A DNA stretch of 64,000 nt from Leucoraja erinacea (taxonomy: Eukaryota), in assembly GCF_028641065.1 (NCBI RefSeq), contig NC_073394.1, forward strand, positions 16,492,001-16,556,000, written 5' to 3'. Shown piece after piece: positions 34,156 through 56,969 of this stretch (the first letter of the stretch is position 1; the number at the start of each line of letters is the position of its first letter). The notes under the pieces are model-generated. The model did no database searches. It saw only the letters and a list, made by a program, of their open reading frames with translations, and had not been told where the DNA came from. The translations under genes and the position numbers were made by a program.

Positions 34156-34285
34156 CTTTTTTAAGATGTATAAATGATTCTAGAAATTCCTCATATGTTT
34201 GTTCATGGCTCCTGCAGAACCTTTCTAAAACATCACAGGTTATTTCTTCCTTCTCCATTGTTTGTGATCCTGACAACAATGGCAT
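34156..34285 (-). CDS. IFTAP: IFTAP/NWC coding exon 1: MPLLSGSQTMEKEEITCDVLERFCRSHEQTYEEFLESFIHLKK, ends in phase 1
   Basis: Resembles the C11orf74 N-terminal motif DVLxKF..HEQTYxEEFLxTFTHL. Acceptor tttcag puts the exon start at 34300. Donor AAG|gcaagc (GC type). Sits beside RAG2 as expected from synteny. Confidence 0.9.
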
Positions 34286-34521
34286 GTCTGATGCATTATC
34301 CTGAAATGGAAAAAAGTATAATTAGAGATATAGCATTCAATAATTTCAAACAAAAAAACAAATTAATTTTAAGTCAGTGTAAGGTGATGTGATGGGGTGA
34401 ATCCATTCTCATCCTATTATTTCTAAACATTGATAATTCAGGAATTATGGAGAAACATATTTATACCGAAGTATAGAAATTAAATAAAACTAGTGGTAAA
34501 TAAAAAAAAGTATGAACAATT

Positions 34522-47860: not shown

Positions 47861-48019
47861 GTGACATTTGGCCGGCTTCTCCTCTGTCATGCTAGTTTAC
47901 TGTTTTTATTAACATACAGGATTCTCAGAAAAACATGACAAGATGCAACGTAGGGTGAAGATCTTACAGGTATGCTGTCCTATTTTCCATCACTAAACAG
48001 AAAACAACTAATCCACCAG

Positions 48020-48678
48020 GGGGGACCGCACGATGGCAGCCTCACCAACTGTCTAGTCTGTCTGTCTTTTTGTCTTTTTTTTTGTAATTTTAGTGTGTTT
48101 TTAAAGTTTGGCTTCATGTTCTCTGGTTTGTTTTATGTGGAGAGTGGGGGAGGGGATCGGGGGAAACTTTTTTTTCAATCTCTTAATTGGTCCGACTATC
48201 GGAGCCGACCCCGTGCCTGGGATCGACGCTCCAACCGCGGCATGTGGATTTCACCATCGACGAGCTCGCAGTCTCGGGTAGAGACGGATGTTGGGAAGCT
48301 TCATATGACGCAGAAGGTTCGACCAGCCCCGACCCAGGGTCAGATCGCCCGGCGCGGCGGTGCTGACATCCCACCCGATGCGGGAGCTTGATCGCCCCGA
48401 ACTAGGAGGGCCTGAACACCGTTGGCTACGGGAGCCAAGATCGTCCCGTCAATGGAAGGCTTGAGGCTCCTGACCACGGGAGAACAAAGAAGGGAAGAGA
48501 TTGAACTTTTTTTCACCTTCCATCACAGTAAGGAATGTGGAGGAGTCACTGTGGTGGATGTTTATGTTAAAATGTATTTTGTGTGTTTTGTTGCTTTTAA
48601 TGGTATGACAGTATGGCAAATCACATTCCTCGTATGTTGCAAAACATACTTGGCTAATAAAGTATGATTATGATTATT
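48020..48678 (+). mobile_element. GC-rich non-coding retroelement, relative of 633-1448
   Basis: Shared CCTTCCATCACAGT...TCACTGTGGTGGATGT hairpin segment; AATAAAG(TATGAT)n tail. Confidence 0.6.
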
Positions 48679-51600
48679 TTTACCTTTTCCTTATAATAGA
48701 ATTATAGGAATCCAGGAGGCGGGGTGGTAGAGATGGATGACAGGGTGAATAGTCGATTTCCCTACAGAGGGAATCTAGAGTTAGAGAGTTCGGCTCACAA
48801 TTCTCAGGATAATGGGAAACCTGTTTAGGATTAAAATGAGACAGAATTTCAACAACTTAAAGTCTTTGCAATTCTTTAGCTCAGAGAACTGTGAACACTG
48901 AGTTATTAAGTACATTCACAGTTTGAAATGGATGTATTATTAACCACATGGGATATGAAACAGGAAGGTGGAGTTGTGGCTGATAAGCAGATAAGCCATA
49001 ATCTTATGGAATGGCAGAGAATGAGGGCTCATGCTGCTCATGGCTCATGCAGCCTTCTCCATAGCTATTTATATTTTCTAATCCAAATGTTTGATAATTT
49101 TATAAGAATCCACATTAGATCTCATGCAAATACTAATTTAGGATTGGTCGAGAAAGAATTCTATATTTTAAGTATTCCATTATAATTAACCACAGTGCAC
49201 CTATTAACTGATACTCACAATACTACAAAAGCTTTGAACAATGGTGGGTTGCAGAACAATAATCCAAATGGTAAAAACGGAGCAAGGCCTCAGTAAAAGT
49301 GTTTTACAAAGTCAATCACACATCATTCCTTCTTCAAAATTTCACCTGTTCCTACCTGAACAAATTAAAACTGGGTGCCCTTATAGGTCTATAATACTAA
49401 TCAAGAGGAAAAGATTTATGCTAAGCATAGTAAAAATGATTACTGCACATTTATGTCATTTAAAACATGACCTCAATGTTAAGGATTATGACAGCAAAAT
49501 CATCAGTATTTGACATCATTATTTTGCTTAACTGAGAGGAATGTCAGGACTGACACAAATCATGTGAAAAAGTGGAAATCCAAAGGTGCCATCAACAATT
49601 TGCTTCTGGACCATTGGTTGTGTTCCATTATGATTCATCATGAAGTTCAATATAACAAACTGTGTTAAAGACATTCAAGATGTTTTTAAAAGATCAAAGC
49701 CCTGGCTAAGGTTGGGGGTGAGACATAAGCTGGTTTTGTTTAATGAATTACTCAGGCAGAACTTGCTTAGGACAGCCCAAGTGATGTTTATGACACATAA
49801 AACTCTTCAACAATTAGGTCTTGAATGTAGACTATCCCCCCAATAATTTCTTCGGTTCAATTCTGGGAGAATCACCCACAATAAATTTGTTGGAATACTG
49901 AAATCAGTAGCATACTAGCAGTGTTTGCTGTAAACATAATTGGAAATATTTTGCAAAAATCATTTTAAATTGGCATATTCATCTGTGCCATAATCAAAAA
50001 ACTGGTCCCGAATTTATTCCCAACTTCATCTGCCTTCCAATTCAAATAATTCTTAATTAAATTGCATAATCAGAAATCCCAGCACAAGTATGCAGCTTTT
50101 TTTTTCTCCAGAAAATGTATTCCCTGATCTTTTCAGCAGTGGTAGCATGGAGCAGAATTCTGCTCAAATCTGCTTTATTACCAAATATAAGCATTATTTA
50201 ATAAGGCATTCCTCTAAAAGTAAAATAAGCTTTAAAATATGTTTTCTCTTGATATAGACTGATAAACCAGAACAATCCTTGAAGGGGTCAAGACTATTGT
50301 TGTGGGTGATACCTAAAGTGGGCAGATTTAAGCTTAAACCAGTATAATCATTTATGGTTGTTATTCCTATTTAAAGTTCATCAATTGTTCCATGCTGATT
50401 TAACAAATTGTTTAGATTGTGCTGATGTTATGGGTCCAAACATATAGAACATCAAAGCCCATTGTTTAATTCAGAATGAGATTTAACATTAAGAGAGTTA
50501 AAAAGGGAATTTACTTTGCAGAATAAACATGCAGGAGATAACATGTTATTATTTATATACTTATTATATACAAGATATTAGTCATATAGTAATGTACACC
50601 TAAACATTTATTATCTTGCATATTTGAAACACACCACATCATTGATGCATCTGCTGTGCACCGGCATTTGATCTCATCAAGGAAGTGCTTGGTATCATCT
50701 GCACCAGCTGTAAACGCTCTCAGAAATATCCTACATTGCCTGCATACTACATATTTACCAAGTGTTCTGCGACTTCAGCAAGCATTTCCAGTCTCTTCAA
50801 CTTCTTGCACTTTACAGGTAATTTTGTTTTGGTATTATGCTCAAATTATAGGCAGTAGAACAATTATTGTGACAACAACTATTGTCACAGTAGTTGATCT
50901 ACCTAACAGCTGTCTTGTATGGACAATACAACCACTTAAAGTTTAGAAAAGGTGTCAAGTGATACCCAGCGTAATAAAAAAGAGCCAAACTTGTAGTCAA
51001 CTTACTACAATTGTTTTAACAAGTGTTAATTAAGTTTATCCAGTGGTTATAAGGTTAATTGGCAGTGCTAACATTATATTACATCTGCTAAGCAATAAAC
51101 TGCAAAGAAAATTAGACCATTCTAATAATTATCATAATAATTGTGGTGAAAATGTAACTTCCTTCTGTAGGCAATGGTAGCTGAGAATTCTAATATAACT
51201 ATGTCTAAGGGCAATGGAAGTCTATATGCTAAAACACAACAGATTATACTGTAATAACCAATTCAGTTAATGGACCAATTGTAGTTTCATTGAAAGAAAG
51301 TGCAAAATTGGAAAAGTAAAATGAAATTCTGTAATTCCTAATTATCGTGTTATTGATAAAAAGCAAAGTTATCTTGAAATACATCTGGTAAAGAAGAAAC
51401 CGAGAAAAGATGAAAAGAATAAATTGCATTTGTGCAAGGCTTTTCACATTCCTGTTATGAAGTCCAGAAGTTACTTACACCTAGTGATCTGGAGTACCCC
51501 TTGGACAATATAGTAATTGTTCATTGAAACACCTAAATTAACAGATCAACTCAATGTGTGCAGGCCAGCCAAAAAAGAGATAATTAATTTAATCTAATTT

Positions 51601-53949
51601 TCCAATTTAATCTGTAATCTTGCAAATTGAGGCGCTTTGTGTGCTCCACCAGATAATGTTTTAAAATGTGTTTTAAGTTTTTGTCACAATTCTTTGAATG
51701 GAAAATCTTTCCTTAGTTCATTTCTAATCCTTTGACAAATTCCCTGACCAGTCCACTAACAAAAATTAACTTTCCTTCTCACCCTGGCCCCTTGTCATCT
51801 TGTCCATCTCAAATATACAAAGAATTGTCAAATATGAAGGGTACAAAGGACTAATGGACAACCTGTTCATTAATTCAAATCTACATGAAAGCAAAATGGG
51901 GCAAGAATTGGTAGATAGTTCCCAAAACTAACATGGCTTGTATCACTACAGTTAACAAAGACTAAATAGTAGTTGGTTTTCTGTAAAATAAAACAAATAT
52001 GCTGATTTTTTTTTTTGAAAAGTAACCAAATTCTTTGTAAGTAGAAGCCAAATTAATTACTGTATTAATTTAAGTATTGTCTATGCTAAGCATAAATAAT
52101 GTTAAGATTAAATGTCAAATTATATTTTAACATCAAAGTAAGAACGAAATTTTAAATGGATAAAATTGATAATAAATTTGCCTCATTTATCATTAACCAT
52201 AAAAATGACAAAATCAATTTCAATATTTCTGATTATGTGGATTCACGTTTTGATGTTAAACAAGATAGACACAATTAAGACCGAAACCCCCATCCAAAGC
52301 CACAGGACAAAATGCCAAAGATTGAAATTTAAATTAAAACATCTTCACATCATTATAGCTGCAATGATTTTAGCTTCTATCCCTCTAAATCTTTTCTATC
52401 CAGATACCCATCGAAATTATTTTAATCTTTGTAATTGCATCTGCATCAAAAGCTTGCCCTGGCAGCTCATACCGTATACCTGTACTTACTGTCCTCTGTG
52501 TGGAGAAAGTTGCCCTCATGTCCTTTTAAAATATTTTCTTTCTCTCTTTATCACTGCCCTCTAACTTTAGACTCCCCTACCATCCACCTTATCTATGCCC
52601 CTCATGATTTTATAAACCTCAATAAAGTAATTCCCTCAGCCTCCTAGGCTCCATGTCAGTAACATCCTTGTGAATATATTTTGCACCCTTTCCAGCTTAA
52701 TTACATTGTTCCTGTAGTAGCCATTTATAGTTTGACGAACAGAACTGTGCCTAATACGCCAAGTGCAGTCTCACCAATGGCTTCTATAGTTGCAACTCCT
52801 GTACTCTCTCAAAGGCAAATGTGCCAAATACTTTCTTCACCATCCTGTCTACCTGAGGCACCACTTTCAGGGATTATGTACCAGTACTTCTAGGTCTCAT
52901 GCTTCTCCAATGCCCTCCCATTTACTGCGCAAAGAATTTAGATTCATACTGCAGGAAATCACTTTTTCAGACATATTGCCTTCTACATCATGCTTACAAA
53001 TTGAAGCTGTAATATAAAGATTTAGTGCACGTTGTTGGCACGTTTCCTGAGAAAAATATCATGTTTTAATCACCGTCCAAATGCCAGGAGCATCCCTGAC
53101 ATACATTTTCATAAGGACATGGATTAACAAATTAAATAATATCGACATTCTCTCTAAGATTATGGTGTAATTTCTTTACTGGCAGTGAAGCAAGGAAATA
53201 ATCCTAAACCTCAAAGGGCAAAGATATCTGACAACTGCAAGATAATGATGTGAAAAAATAAATATATTAATAATGCAAATACAGTGTTACAGATTTCAAA
53301 AGCCTATTGGGTGATAAGTTTAGCTTAGTTTTGTTTATCGTTTTCTATGTACCGAGGTACAGTGAAAAATGTTTGTTTGCATGCAATACAGTCAAGGAAA
53401 AGTCTATACATGATTACAGTCAAGCTATCCAGTGTACAGATCAATGATGATGGGTACAAGATAAGGATTGTAGGGAAATATGGATGTATAAATATACATA
53501 TTTGGGCTAAAAGAGTACAGGGAAATAACATGGGATATAAGTCAAATAGATAATTAGTTCAAAACAATGAAAACATAATCTGGCAGATCGGTTTCATTGA
53601 ACCATTGAGTGGCCAGTTGAAGCCCATAGAAACCCCATAGTTTCTGCGAACCAAGATGTAAGATGTCGTGCGTTTTGTTGTAATCCCATCCCCCCGGGCA
53701 GAGTGTGCATGCTATCGCTACAGGCCACTGGTACTTTCGGTGGGTCAGTGTGTGTGTGTTTGTGGGTCTGGAGTGGACGAGGAGAGGTAAATGAGCGGCG
53801 AGATGATGAAGAGCATCATTATCATAGGCCACGGTTCACTCACTAAACCCCTGGTAGATTTAACACTGCAAGAGGCTGGGCTGCGCCAGAAAATCAACCA
53901 CTGCGTTTATTGGGGTGGGGGAGATCAAACGGTCAGTTTAAGCATTACA

Positions 53950-54170
53950 AAAGAGGCGATGGCCAACTTTAGAGCCGCCACTTCACTTCAGCCAGGTCTT
54001 TACTCACTCGCCCGACAATCTCGGCGTCGCTCTCCCATCCCGTGGCCCTGGCAACGCCGCGCCGTGACGCGGTGCCCGCCGGGAGATGGAGTCCATTGCG
54101 CCCCAAATTAAACTACAATTCCCATCAGGTACCGCGGCGCCCACGTACATTTGAATTGGGTCCGCCTGGG
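53950..54170. promoter_or_regulatory. CpG-rich, probably bidirectional IFTAP/NWC promoter with two inverted ZNF143 (SBS) sites and an RFX X-box
   Basis: AAACTACAATTCCCATCAGGTACCGCG (+, 54110-54136) and GGACTCCATCTCCCGGCGGGCACCGCG (-, 54068-54094). X-box GTGGCC-CT-GGCAAC at 54042-54055. Local CpG enrichment in an AT-rich context. Confidence 0.85.
54008..54066 (-). other. IFTAP: Probable non-coding first exon of IFTAP (5' end approximate)
   Basis: Strong minus-strand donor CGA|gtgagta at 54008/54007, directly downstream of the CpG-rich ZNF143 promoter. Confidence 0.65.
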
Positions 54171-55189
54171 AAAATAAACCTTCAACTTAGTTCCTGAAAC
54201 AAATGTAAGGAAGAGCGGGAAAAACATAGATCATTTTTTTAAATCCCAATATTTGTATTTGCATTCAAACCAATTTAAATAAAATAATAAGAATAGAAAC
54301 CGCTGGAAGTCGACTTTGAACGTTCACCAGAAGTGCCATCTGGCTGATGGAGTATTTCTTGCATATTGCCTCCTGTTTCCATTATGTATCTCTAAACTAA
54401 ACTAAATATAAATATTCAGCTCCAATTGGCTCCAGGTTAAGACAAAGTGATAACTGTAGATTAAGGCCAGACGCCACGTAACCTTTTCTCCTGATTAGTT
54501 TATCCAGCCTTCACAAATATTTATTTTACAAACCATCCCACAATCAATTCGTTCCTTTGATCATTACTCATTACTCCCCTCCGAGGACCTATCTGAGGGC
54601 TGCTTTTTATAATTCAGGAACATATTTGGGAATGCCTAGCAATGATCTTCACCTACCTATTCCAGCCTTCACTGCTACCATAATTTTGAGGTCATAATCT
54701 CCATCTGATGCACATGCAACCAATACTGCTCTCGAAAGATTGAAAATTATTTTGCATCTTTTCCCATCAATGTTACAAATAAAGAACAAATACTGAAAAA
54801 CAGAAAAAAGTATTCTGAACTAGAATTCCAAAAACGTACAGTTGACTGAATGAAGATTTATTGACACTGAATTACTGTATCAATGTGAGATGCAATAATA
54901 ATTTGCCGGTTAATTTTTCTTTAAGTTAATGAATATAATGCTTTCATCAATAAACCATGAGGAAAGCATGAACCCCAAATAATTCAGTTTAAAAATATGT
55001 TTTCTTAATCATTGGCTTATCATTAAAATAATGCTAAATGGCAGCAACTATGCAAATTGCCTTGTAGAATGGTCAGTTTTACATCATCATAGTCTGTAAT
55101 AAAATATATGTCTTGATTTTCTTTTCATTTCTAACATAATGTTACATTCAGTTTCCTTTCAAAGGTCCAGCCTGCTATTGACTGCAATA

Positions 55190-56749
55190 ATGTCCCTGCA
55201 AATGGTTTCAGTGAACAGCAGTACCAACCTAATACAGCCAGGATTCTCCTTACTCAATTTTCATGGTGAAGTCTTTCTTTTTGGGCAAAAAGGGTGGCCT
55301 AAACGATCCTGCAGCACAGGCATTTTTCTTCTTCATCTCAAGGACCATCTACTGAAACTTAAACCCGTTTCATTTTCATCGGAATCATGCTACCTTCCAC
55401 CGCTGCGCCGGCCTGCAATAACTCATTACTCGGATCCCTCAGAAACAGGAAGCCTTTATTATATCATTCACGGTGGGAGAACTCCGAATAGTGAAGTGCC
55501 TAATTCACTTTACGTCATGAGGGTTTATGACAATACTGCCAAAAAGAGAACATCTCTTTGTTGCAGTGAAAAAAATCTGAAAGGAGATGTCCCCACAGGA
55601 AGATATGGCCACACCATCAATGTGATTCAGAGCAAGGGACAAACTATATGTGTCTTGTTTGGGGGTAGATCCTACCAGCCTCCTGGGCAAAGAACCACAG
55701 AAAACTGGAACAGCTTAGTCGATTGTTTGCCTGAGGTTTTTCTGATTGATATGAACACCGGCCATTGCACATCCCACATGCTACCAGAAATAGAAGAAGG
55801 ATTTTCATTCCATGTTGCTGTTTCAAAAATTGACACCATCTATATATTAGGTGGCCACTCCATCAAAGACAATCATCGCCCTGAAAGATTGCTTAGTCTA
55901 AAAGTAGATCTTTCAGGCATCCATCCCAGTGTTAAATGTACAGTACTGAATGGGGGTATCTCTGTATCAAGTGCAATAGTGACCCAAGCTGGCAAAGATG
56001 AATTCATCATTGTTGGCGGCTATGAATCTGAGAGCAAGAAGCGAATCATTTGTAACACCATCGTTTTGGAGGATGATAGCATTCAGATATTGGATAAAGA
56101 TCCCCCAATATGGACTAGTGATATAAACACAAGCAAAACCTGGTTTGGCAGCGATATGGGAAGTGGTGCAGTGTTAATAGGAATTCCTGGAAATACAAAA
56201 CAGGATACATCAGAAGCAAACTACTTCTATATAGCAAATTTTGGACAGCCAAAAGAGGAGAGCCAAATGTCTGCCAGCCAGGAATCCTTTACTGATCCTG
56301 AGGAATGCAGTGCATTTGAAGATTCAGAAGAATTTCACTTTGTAGTTGAACCAGATCCCTCTGAATATGTGGAAAACTTGAATGAAGGTGATGAAGAAGG
56401 ATATTGGATAAAATGCAGTGCCAACTGCAATATGAATATCAAGATCTGGGTGCCCTATTATTCCACAGAACTCAATAAACCAGCAATGATCTTCTGTTCA
56501 AATGCAGGTGATGATGGACACTGGGTACATGCTCAGTGCATGAATCTCACAGAATCACAGCTAATCCAGTTTTCTCAGGAGAACATAACGTACTTTTGCA
56601 ATGAACACTTTATTGATAGAAGCATTAAAACTCCACCAAAGATAAAGCAGATAAAGCGAACACCAATAAAAACCCCACGTAAGAAGTCACCAGCAACACT
56701 GAAAAGGACACCAATGAAGAAAAGCTTCCTGAAGAGACTGTTTGATTGA
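55190..56749 (+). CDS. RAG2: V(D)J recombination-activating protein 2 (kelch beta-propeller core, acidic hinge, PHD finger, basic C-terminal tail), single coding exon, 519 aa
   Basis: Translation MSLQMVSVN...QPGFSLL..FGQKGWPKRSC..YLPPLR..GRYGHT..QRTTENWNS..FEDSEEF..GYWIKC..HWVHAQCM..YFCNEH..KKSFLKRLFD matches vertebrate RAG2 throughout. Start placed at ATG 55190 (homologous MSLQM), downstream of a splice acceptor TTTCCTTTCAAAG ending at 55164, not at the ORF-track ATG 55139. Confidence 0.98.
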   Translation: MSLQMVSVNSSTNLIQPGFSLLNFHGEVFLFGQKGWPKRSCSTGIFLLHLKDHLLKLKPVSFSSESCYLPPLRRPAITHYSDPSETGSLYYIIHGGRTPNSEVPNSLYVMRVYDNTAKKRTSLCCSEKNLKGDVPTGRYGHTINVIQSKGQTICVLFGGRSYQPPGQRTTENWNSLVDCLPEVFLIDMNTGHCTSHMLPEIEEGFSFHVAVSKIDTIYILGGHSIKDNHRPERLLSLKVDLSGIHPSVKCTVLNGGISVSSAIVTQAGKDEFIIVGGYESESKKRIICNTIVLEDDSIQILDKDPPIWTSDINTSKTWFGSDMGSGAVLIGIPGNTKQDTSEANYFYIANFGQPKEESQMSASQESFTDPEECSAFEDSEEFHFVVEPDPSEYVENLNEGDEEGYWIKCSANCNMNIKIWVPYYSTELNKPAMIFCSNAGDDGHWVHAQCMNLTESQLIQFSQENITYFCNEHFIDRSIKTPPKIKQIKRTPIKTPRKKSPATLKRTPMKKSFLKRLFD

Positions 56750-56969
56750 AATTGTAAAACTTATAACAAAAATACTGCATGCAGATAATTATAAACAGTA
56801 CAGGGTTCTGACTTTTAGCATATTCCAGACCTATTACTGCATTAAGATATCAGTCGTTATTTTGTGGAATATAAATGCAGCAACCAGGCAGCTAAAGGCC
56901 ATCTCTGGATTAGTTAATGTCATTTACTGATAACAAGGTGGAAATTATTTCTTATTGAACAAAAGTTTA

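What the first reader, a model, noticed from the sequence alone, without database searches (positions are those of the whole stretch)
54040..54210. Inverted pair of 27-bp ZNF143 sites forming a probable bidirectional IFTAP/RAG2 promoter in a chondrichthyan
Seen: two divergent, near-complete SBS motifs 15 bp apart (54068-54094 on -, 54110-54136 on +) in a CpG patch. A minus-strand donor lies at 54008 (IFTAP exon 1) and a possible plus-strand donor AAT|gtaagg at 54204, which could splice to the RAG2 acceptor at 55164. Known: the mammalian NWC promoter lies in a RAG2 intron, depends on ZNF143 and is bidirectional, and has been proposed to have helped domesticate the RAG transposon. Inference: the same architecture is present in this early-diverging jawed-vertebrate lineage and may drive non-lymphoid or germline RAG2 transcripts.
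Basis: partly seen in the sequence, partly recalled or inferred. Interest (0 to 1): 0.72.

Follow-up and report, generated by a model that had tools for sequence, protein, structure and literature searches.

The report
Compacted ZNF143 promoter inside skate RAG2
In the little skate, two back-to-back DNA sites matching the ZNF143 motif sit in the last intron of the antibody-recombination gene RAG2, where mice keep the two-way promoter of the neighbouring gene IFTAP; they likely form the same, already known promoter with an unusually short spacer, and whether it makes RAG2 message in germ cells is untested.

Summary
Both 27-bp sites match the ZNF143 consensus with one mismatch each. They are the only such sites in 64 kb (shuffles: 0.03) and lie in a 231-bp CpG patch. 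The window is little skate. Annotated isoforms place the pair in the last RAG2 intron, as in mouse. A sawfish IFTAP gene model reads through the orthologous stretch, is compatible with both sites and ends exactly at the 54008 donor. So this is very likely the orthologue of the published mouse NWC/IFTAP promoter. New here: the core gap is 19 bp, against 41 inferred in sawfish and about 40 in mouse. Other divergent pairs in this genome peak at 39-41 and 49-53, and no other pair matched my pattern at this short spacing. That suggests a skate-lineage loss of about 22 bp, roughly two helical turns. Against strong constraint: three close relatives carry 4 changes in the 54 site bases, no fewer than in the flanks. 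Nothing shows a RAG2 transcript from here. The 54204 donor has a 20% chance background, and the unspliced route carries 22 ATGs. Verdict: variant of a known promoter; the germline-RAG idea is testable but untested.

The parts
54068..54094 (-). IFTAP-side ZNF143 site; the 3' (SBS1) half fits, one change in the ACTACA half, no TGGGAA core
   Evidence: 33.5 bits; sawfish peptide compatible with 0 mismatches, 9 of 17 specified bases forced by the codons and 8 ambiguous
54110..54136 (+). RAG2-side ZNF143 site (SBS2 type, with the TTCCCA core shared by THAP11, RBPJ and Ikaros)
   Evidence: 29.5 bits; 24 of 27 bases equal the published SBS2 gel-shift probe (compared by eye); sawfish peptide compatible with 2 mismatches, both in the tail
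54095..54109 (.). 15-bp spacer (19 between the two ACTACA cores); about 22 bp shorter than inferred for sawfish
   Evidence: length unchanged in 3 of 3 relatives; the only genome match of the relaxed pattern at spacer 11-19
53940..54170 (.). CpG patch holding the pair
   Evidence: GC 0.60, o/e 1.10
54008..54058 (-). predicted non-coding IFTAP exon 1; the 3' end at 54008 is supported, the start near 54058 is only projected from the mouse offset
   Evidence: sawfish model matches 54103-54008 (75%, E 1e-10 against the window) and stops at the donor; donor unchanged in 3 of 3 relatives; mouse offsets
54202..54210 (+). candidate splice donor after 54204 for a RAG2-sense transcript; use not shown
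   Evidence: 6 of 9 match to the U1 consensus; unchanged in 3 of 3 relatives; chance of such a word within 150 nt about 0.20
54372..54407 (.). tail of an interspersed repeat between the promoter and the RAG2 coding exon
   Evidence: hundreds of repeat reads end here with loose ends on both sides
47943..47969 (+). annotated upstream RAG2 exon (coding part in isoform X1)
   Evidence: P0121 maps letter for letter
50682..50817 (+). annotated RAG2 exon with a strong donor; E-box, RUNX and ETS words lie at 50633-50705
55190..56749 (+). RAG2 coding sequence, 519 aa; acceptors resume at 55152 or 55165
34157..34300 (-). IFTAP first coding exon (ATG at 34285); further exons at 32553-32416, 27012-26944, 24137-24000 and 22811-22638
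48217..48243 (-). extra IFTAP exon of annotated isoform X1, inside a high-copy repeat

Best explanation
The site pair is likely the little-skate orthologue of the mouse NWC/IFTAP promoter: ZNF143 is predicted to bind both sites and start IFTAP transcription leftwards through a short first exon ending at 54008, with weaker rightward firing towards RAG2 as a likely by-product. Shown: the motifs, the CpG patch, the position in the last RAG2 intron, the gene layout, and a sawfish gene model that uses the same donor. Inferred: binding, start sites and two-way activity (from mouse and human experiments), and a loss of about 22 bp between the sites in the skate lineage that roughly keeps their helical phase. 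A rightward RNA would yield RAG2 protein only if spliced from 54204; left unspliced it meets 22 ATGs and 6 poly(A) words before the RAG2 start.
For: The motif match is far beyond chance. The motif behaves like a real promoter element in this genome: 346 exact matches against 0 for the reversed control, and CpG o/e is 0.56-1.16 around the 27 sites examined. The layout is IFTAP(-) / RAG2(+) / RAG1(-), with annotated RAG2 exons upstream of the pair, as described for mouse (PMC3439442). The sawfish IFTAP model P0147 aligns in three collinear pieces over 54221-54008, ends at the donor, and gives a core gap of 41. In a background of 14,222 offsets in coding proteins, 0 are compatible with the motif at up to 1 mismatch and 1 at 2 mismatches. 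In mouse, both sites are needed for NWC activity and NWC is 9-fold above RAG2 in testis. One SBS is enough for two-way reporter activity (PMC3082894).
Against: No RNA read or contig maps to the predicted first exon in the four RNA runs laid (the raw-read run is 3'-biased and of unknown tissue). In three close relatives, 4 of 54 site bases differ against 10 of 236 outside (Fisher p 0.30). Three of these hit specified positions; a five-fold constraint on those positions would give that with p 0.003. The spacing lies outside both genome-wide modes and is unique for the pattern tried, so cooperative action of the two sites may be lost. The only upstream IFTAP exon that I could map in the skate annotation lies in a repeat at 48.2 kb; non-coding exons are invisible to that test. 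The sawfish evidence is a back-translated gene model, not DNA or RNA.
Confidence: 0.58

Rival explanations
1. A productive two-way promoter: rightward transcripts start near 54150-54180, splice from 54204 to the RAG2 coding exon and give translatable RAG2 mRNA in gonad or other non-lymphoid cells.
For: The donor has a perfect +1 to +5 core, lies about 70 nt beyond the right site, and is unchanged in 3 of 3 relatives. The sawfish peptide forces GT and the +5 G at the same place (read by hand). The splice to 55165 would keep the RAG2 frame and add a nine-codon in-frame leader. Mouse testis RAG2 RNA is only 5-10-fold below thymus. Several shark and ray RAG2 proteins are each listed under 3-4 RefSeq accessions, which fits several 5' ends.
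Against: No read or contig shows the joint. 7 of 27 other ZNF143 sites have such a word within 150 nt, and the background is 0.20. The +4 base differs in sawfish. No RAG2 protein was detected in mouse testis. No annotated RAG2 extension mapped significantly to the patch; the best was horn shark X1 at E 0.033.
Confidence: 0.26
2. The pair is decaying after the deletion: one site does the work, the promoter is effectively one-way, and part of IFTAP transcription may have moved to a repeat-derived exon at 48.2 kb.
For: The spacing is unique in the genome. Each relative has a change at a specified position of one site: 54068, 54092 and 54121, the last at contig depth 5.7. The left site lacks an intact ACTACA. 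Isoform X1 has a repeat exon.
Against: The ACTACA part is not needed for ZNF143 binding (Kd 1.36 against 1.58 nM, PMC3627581), so the change at 54092 and the left-site mismatch may be tolerated. Both sites still score within the range of intact genome sites. The spacer length is fixed in the window and in all three relatives.
Confidence: 0.14
3. A chance pair of motif-like words in a GC-rich patch, with no promoter role.
For: None beyond the lack of RNA evidence.
Against: Shuffle control, score gap, orthologous position and the sawfish match.
Confidence: 0.02

Closest known systems
Mouse NWC (C11orf74/IFTAP) bidirectional promoter; Laszkiewicz 2012 PMC3439442 and 2014 PMC4157847
   Same: [quoted passage not shown] The site pair is also reported for human, dog, Xenopus and coelacanth.
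   Different: 15 bp between the sites against 36 (mouse sites at -10/-37 and -74/-100). About 1.1 kb and a repeat remnant to the RAG2 coding exon against 313 nt. A RAG2-sense message would need splicing, while the mouse one is intronless. Only one site has the Ikaros TGGGAA word, while both mouse sites do. Activity is not tested here.
Sniezewski et al. 2018, Dev Comp Immunol 81:105 (conservation of NWC promoter bidirectionality in jawed vertebrates)
   Same: The title states the same claim for jawed vertebrates in general (reference line only).
   Different: Paper not held. From recall it tests human, Xenopus and zebrafish; I could not check whether it shows a cartilaginous fish.
ZNF143 SBS1/SBS2 sites at bidirectional promoters; Anno 2011 PMC3082894, Ngondo-Mbongo 2013 PMC3627581
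   Same: Same motif; the right site is SBS2-type and the left site is closer to SBS1.
   Different: The passages read give no preferred spacing for inverted pairs. In this genome such pairs are mostly divergent with core gaps near 40 or 51, and this locus departs from both.

Membership tests
NWC/IFTAP-type bidirectional ZNF143 promoter | lies in the intron before the RAG2 coding exon | tested here: met
   RAG2 isoform X1 exons at 47943-47969 and 50682-50817, coding exon from 55152
NWC/IFTAP-type bidirectional ZNF143 promoter | adjoins the first exon of IFTAP on the opposite strand | tested here: met
   by orthology: the sawfish model ends at the 54008 donor; IFTAP exons are on the minus strand; no skate RNA read seen
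NWC/IFTAP-type bidirectional ZNF143 promoter | CpG-island association | tested here: met
   231 bp, GC 0.60, o/e 1.10; methylation state not testable
NWC/IFTAP-type bidirectional ZNF143 promoter | two inverted ZNF143 consensus sites | tested here: met
   the orientation of the mouse pair (divergent or convergent) is in a figure I could not see
NWC/IFTAP-type bidirectional ZNF143 promoter | sites about 40-50 bp apart (36 between whole sites in mouse) | tested here: not met
   15 between whole sites, core gap 19; met in sawfish with an inferred core gap of 41
NWC/IFTAP-type bidirectional ZNF143 promoter | Ikaros TGGGAA word in both sites | tested here: not met
   present in the right site only (sequence; mouse state)
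NWC/IFTAP-type bidirectional ZNF143 promoter | sites conserved above their flanks | tested here: inconclusive
   close relatives 4/54 against 10/236; sawfish peptide 8/9 identical over the left site against 14/20 downstream
NWC/IFTAP-type bidirectional ZNF143 promoter | ZNF143 binding and two-way activity | not testable with these tools
   needs gel shift, ChIP, reporter or CAGE
NWC/IFTAP-type bidirectional ZNF143 promoter | RAG2 transcripts from this promoter in non-lymphoid tissue | tested here: inconclusive
   the one raw RNA run covers only the 3' half of RAG2, tissue unknown
NWC/IFTAP-type bidirectional ZNF143 promoter | methylated and silenced in lymphocytes | not testable with these tools
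   needs bisulfite or long-read methylation data

The most novel reading that the evidence does not exclude
The ancestral IFTAP promoter gives cartilaginous fish a spliced, translatable RAG2 mRNA in germ cells. This would supply half of the recombinase that made their germline-joined immunoglobulin genes, and the skate-specific two-turn compaction of the ZNF143 pair would tune how much is made.
Probability: 0.1. Interest if true: 0.78.

Novelty: new variant of a known kind. Interest (0 to 1): 0.42.

Why it matters
If confirmed, it extends the IFTAP promoter with paired ZNF143 sites to cartilaginous fish, which dates the arrangement to the common ancestor of jawed vertebrates. The RAG-domestication hypothesis (PMC3439442) needs that, but it was expected. 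The more useful gain is a precise test of an old question. Sharks and skates carry immunoglobulin genes joined in the germline by RAG-like activity, and the source of RAG in germ cells was left open (PMC2193156). This locus names the start region and the splice joint (54204 to 55152 or 55165) to look for in purified germ cells. The skate/sawfish contrast in spacing is also a natural experiment on a spacing rule for divergent ZNF143 pairs (about 40 or 51 bp) seen across this genome.

Tried and rejected
RNA: no RNA holder was listed for 53700-56800. The lay of X8, X1, X9 and X10 gave sense reads on the 3' half of RAG2 only (depth 2-9) and nothing on 53722-54279 or on the upstream exons. The run is 3'-biased, 6% of it was read and the tissue is unknown, so this says nothing on start sites. 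A metagenome scan with RAG2 returned one contig (48% identical protein) with only 465 bp upstream and no site at up to 3 mismatches. A search for other gene models that read through the promoter found only the sawfish one (4 hits of 43 candidates). A representative-library search with the exon-1 frame gave one unrelated repetitive protein at E 8.5e-4. The horn shark RAG2 X1 extension is rich in G/A/R/P (0.38 against 0.16 for the skate X1 extension), but it is neither compatible with the motif (best 4 mismatches) nor a significant match to the patch; rejected as evidence. A third site at the usual 40 or 51 spacing was not found (next best score 9.3). Convergent pairs as the usual form were rejected: 7 at gaps 40-70 against 71 divergent at 36-66. 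A repeat artefact behind the spacing modes (warned of in PMC11687419) is unlikely: among 12 paired loci, only one pair of loci aligned over more than 100 bp (118 bp at 74%), though some pairs listed are copies of each other. The scan's earlier notes held nothing relevant. The 2018 conservation paper is not held. Its figures, and those of PMC3439442, could bear on novelty; I read no supplements.

Full report
Observation. I used the consensus printed in PMC3439442 with one N added, which makes it fit the 27-base SBS2 probe printed in PMC3627581. Each site has one mismatch. They are the only two matches at up to two mismatches in 64 kb, and 0 of 100 shuffles reached two. The pair sits in a 231-bp patch with GC 0.60 and CpG o/e 1.10. 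The donors after 54008 (-) and 54204 (+) and the acceptor at 55164 are present.

The motif is real in this genome. The strict pattern has 346 matches in G000 against 0 for the reversed control. I fetched the first 30 loci and dropped 3 that belong to one cluster. Around the remaining 27, CpG o/e is 0.56-1.16. A matrix built from them scores our sites 33.5 and 29.5 bits, inside the leave-one-out range (26.3-38.9) and far above the next best place in the window (9.3). I did not look for the skate ZNF143 gene itself; that it exists is assumed.

The locus. The reading frame at 55190-56749 is RAG2, 519/519 identical to a Leucoraja erinacea record. RAG1 lies on the minus strand about 14 kb beyond the RAG2 stop. 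IFTAP coding exons run on the minus strand from 34300 down to 22638. The annotated RAG2 isoform X1 maps to exons at 47943-47969 and 50682-50817 and re-enters at 55152. The site pair therefore lies in the last RAG2 intron. [quoted passage not shown]

Evidence from a distant relative. A sawfish (Pristis pectinata) IFTAP gene model, P0147, has a 105-residue extension that reads through the orthologous promoter. It aligns to the window in three collinear pieces over 54221-54008. The best piece is 75% identical over 32 residues (E 1e-10 against the window) and ends exactly at the 54008 donor. Back-translation is compatible with the left site at 0 mismatches (9 of 17 specified bases forced, 8 ambiguous) and with the right site at 2 mismatches in the tail (9 forced, 6 ambiguous). 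Among 14,222 control offsets in coding proteins, none reached 1 mismatch and one reached 2. This supports both the donor and the age of the pair. It rests on a predicted protein, not on DNA or reads, and assumes no intron within that stretch.

What differs: spacing. Counting from core to core, the skate gap is 19. The sawfish gap is 41. The mouse sites at -10/-37 and -74/-100 leave 36 bases between whole sites, or a core gap of 40 if they are divergent like ours; I could not see the figure. Genome-wide, strict divergent core pairs number 4 at gaps 5-35 and 71 at gaps 36-66. Of the 50 listed among the 71, 19 fall at 39-41 and 24 at 49-53. Convergent pairs at 40-70 number 7. A relaxed pattern that admits our left site finds only this locus at spacer 11-19, and 29 places at 32-40 (53 strand matches, some of them copies). 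The simplest reading is a loss of about 22 bp in the skate lineage, close to two helical turns. All three relatives laid keep the 15-bp spacer.

Results against strong constraint. In contigs of three related organisms (B, C and D; two of the four runs are one sample), 4 of the 54 site bases differ, against 10 of 236 outside, plus four small indels outside (Fisher p 0.30). Three of the four hit specified positions: the last base of the left site in B, the first core A of the left site in C, and a C of the right TCCC core in D (single contig, depth 5.7). The sites are thus not visibly more conserved than their flanks at this short distance. Part of this may be tolerated, since the ACTACA part is not needed for ZNF143 binding. 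Both donors are unchanged in all three.

The RAG2 direction. In mouse, the RAG2-sense start is at -143, the coding exon begins 313 nt from the NWC start, the RNA is intronless and 9-fold below NWC in testis, and no protein was detected. In skate, about 1 kb with a repeat remnant separates the pair from the coding exon; it holds 22 ATGs and 6 poly(A) words. A useful message would need the 54204 donor. A splice from it to 55165 would keep the frame and add nine codons. The donor is a modest clue: the window background for such a word within 150 nt is 0.20, and 7 of 27 other sites have one. The sawfish peptide forces GT and the +5 G there but changes +4 (read by hand). The only raw RNA run, of unknown tissue, covered the 3' half of RAG2 and nothing upstream, so no transcript from this promoter is shown in either direction. 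The skate IFTAP isoform X1 also has an exon at 48243-48217 inside a repeat with at least 40 matches in the genome; it may be an internal exon or a second start.

Mechanism. The most likely model is that ZNF143 binds both sites, keeps the patch open and stimulates initiation beyond each site. The leftward RNA is stabilised by the donor at 54008 and becomes IFTAP mRNA; rightward RNA is weaker and productive only if spliced. ZNF143 stimulating initiation from upstream positions, its same-strand bias and the sufficiency of one site for two-way activity come from passages of 10.1101/2024.05.13.594008, PMC13655173 and PMC3082894. Silencing in lymphocytes by Ikaros and RAG2 read-through, as in mouse, is possible but untested; only the right site has the TGGGAA word.

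What is known. The paired-site promoter is published for mouse, human, dog, Xenopus and coelacanth, and a 2018 paper claims conservation in jawed vertebrates (reference line only; not held). Searches listed no paper that, by title or abstract start, describes it in a cartilaginous fish. Searches listed none on a spacing rule for divergent ZNF143 pairs. Most subscription papers are not in this library. What I read: parts 1-3 of 5 of PMC3439442; passages of PMC4157847, PMC2193156, PMC3627581, PMC3082894, PMC13655173, PMC11687419, PMC13734088 and 10.1101/2024.05.13.594008; one reference line of PMC7786948; no figures or supplements.

Verdict. A real feature and very likely the orthologue of a known promoter, filed as a variant because spacing and the second Ikaros word fail the membership test. 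Its link to germline-joined immunoglobulin genes (PMC2193156) is a hypothesis; it also needs RAG1, which this promoter does not face. Interest 0.42.

Noticed in passing
genome-wide in G000: Divergent ZNF143 core pairs show two sharp spacing modes about 11 bp apart (core gap 39-41 and 49-53; 43 of 50 listed) and outnumber convergent pairs about tenfold. I found no paper on this; it may be a general rule worth testing in human.
   Followed up: partly
G000:C6:51862095-51862790 and G000:C7:6691927-6692313: Tandem arrays of full ZNF143 motifs, with periods of 35 bp (18 matches listed) and 60 bp (7 matches listed).
   Followed up: no
window 48243-48217 (-): The annotated IFTAP isoform X1 takes an ATG-bearing exon from a CpG-rich high-copy repeat and would splice from a GC donor. 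It recalls the secondary NWC promoter described in mouse, or it may be an annotation artefact.
   Followed up: partly
window 34157 (-): The first coding exon of IFTAP appears to end at a GC rather than a GT donor.
   Followed up: no
window 55152 and 55165 (+): RAG2 has two acceptors 13 bases apart. Use of the upstream one gives the annotated 67-residue N-terminal extension (P0121); a ray isoform (P0130) has a similar junction peptide.
   Followed up: partly
window 50633-50705 (+): A cluster of RUNX, three E-box and ETS words at the start of the annotated RAG2 exon 50682-50817 may mark a lymphoid promoter or enhancer (motif names recalled).
   Followed up: no
window 54029-54038 (-), predicted IFTAP exon 1: An upstream ATG would open an 11-codon uORF that ends at the start of exon 2.
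   Followed up: no
L007:1878-2828 (-): A Tc1/mariner-type transposase frame of 316 codons lies just left of the window.
   Followed up: no
P0135 (horn shark RAG2 X1): Its 52-residue extension holds a duplicated 14-residue stretch rich in residues with GC-rich codons, as if from a CpG-rich first exon; no significant match to the skate patch.
   Followed up: partly
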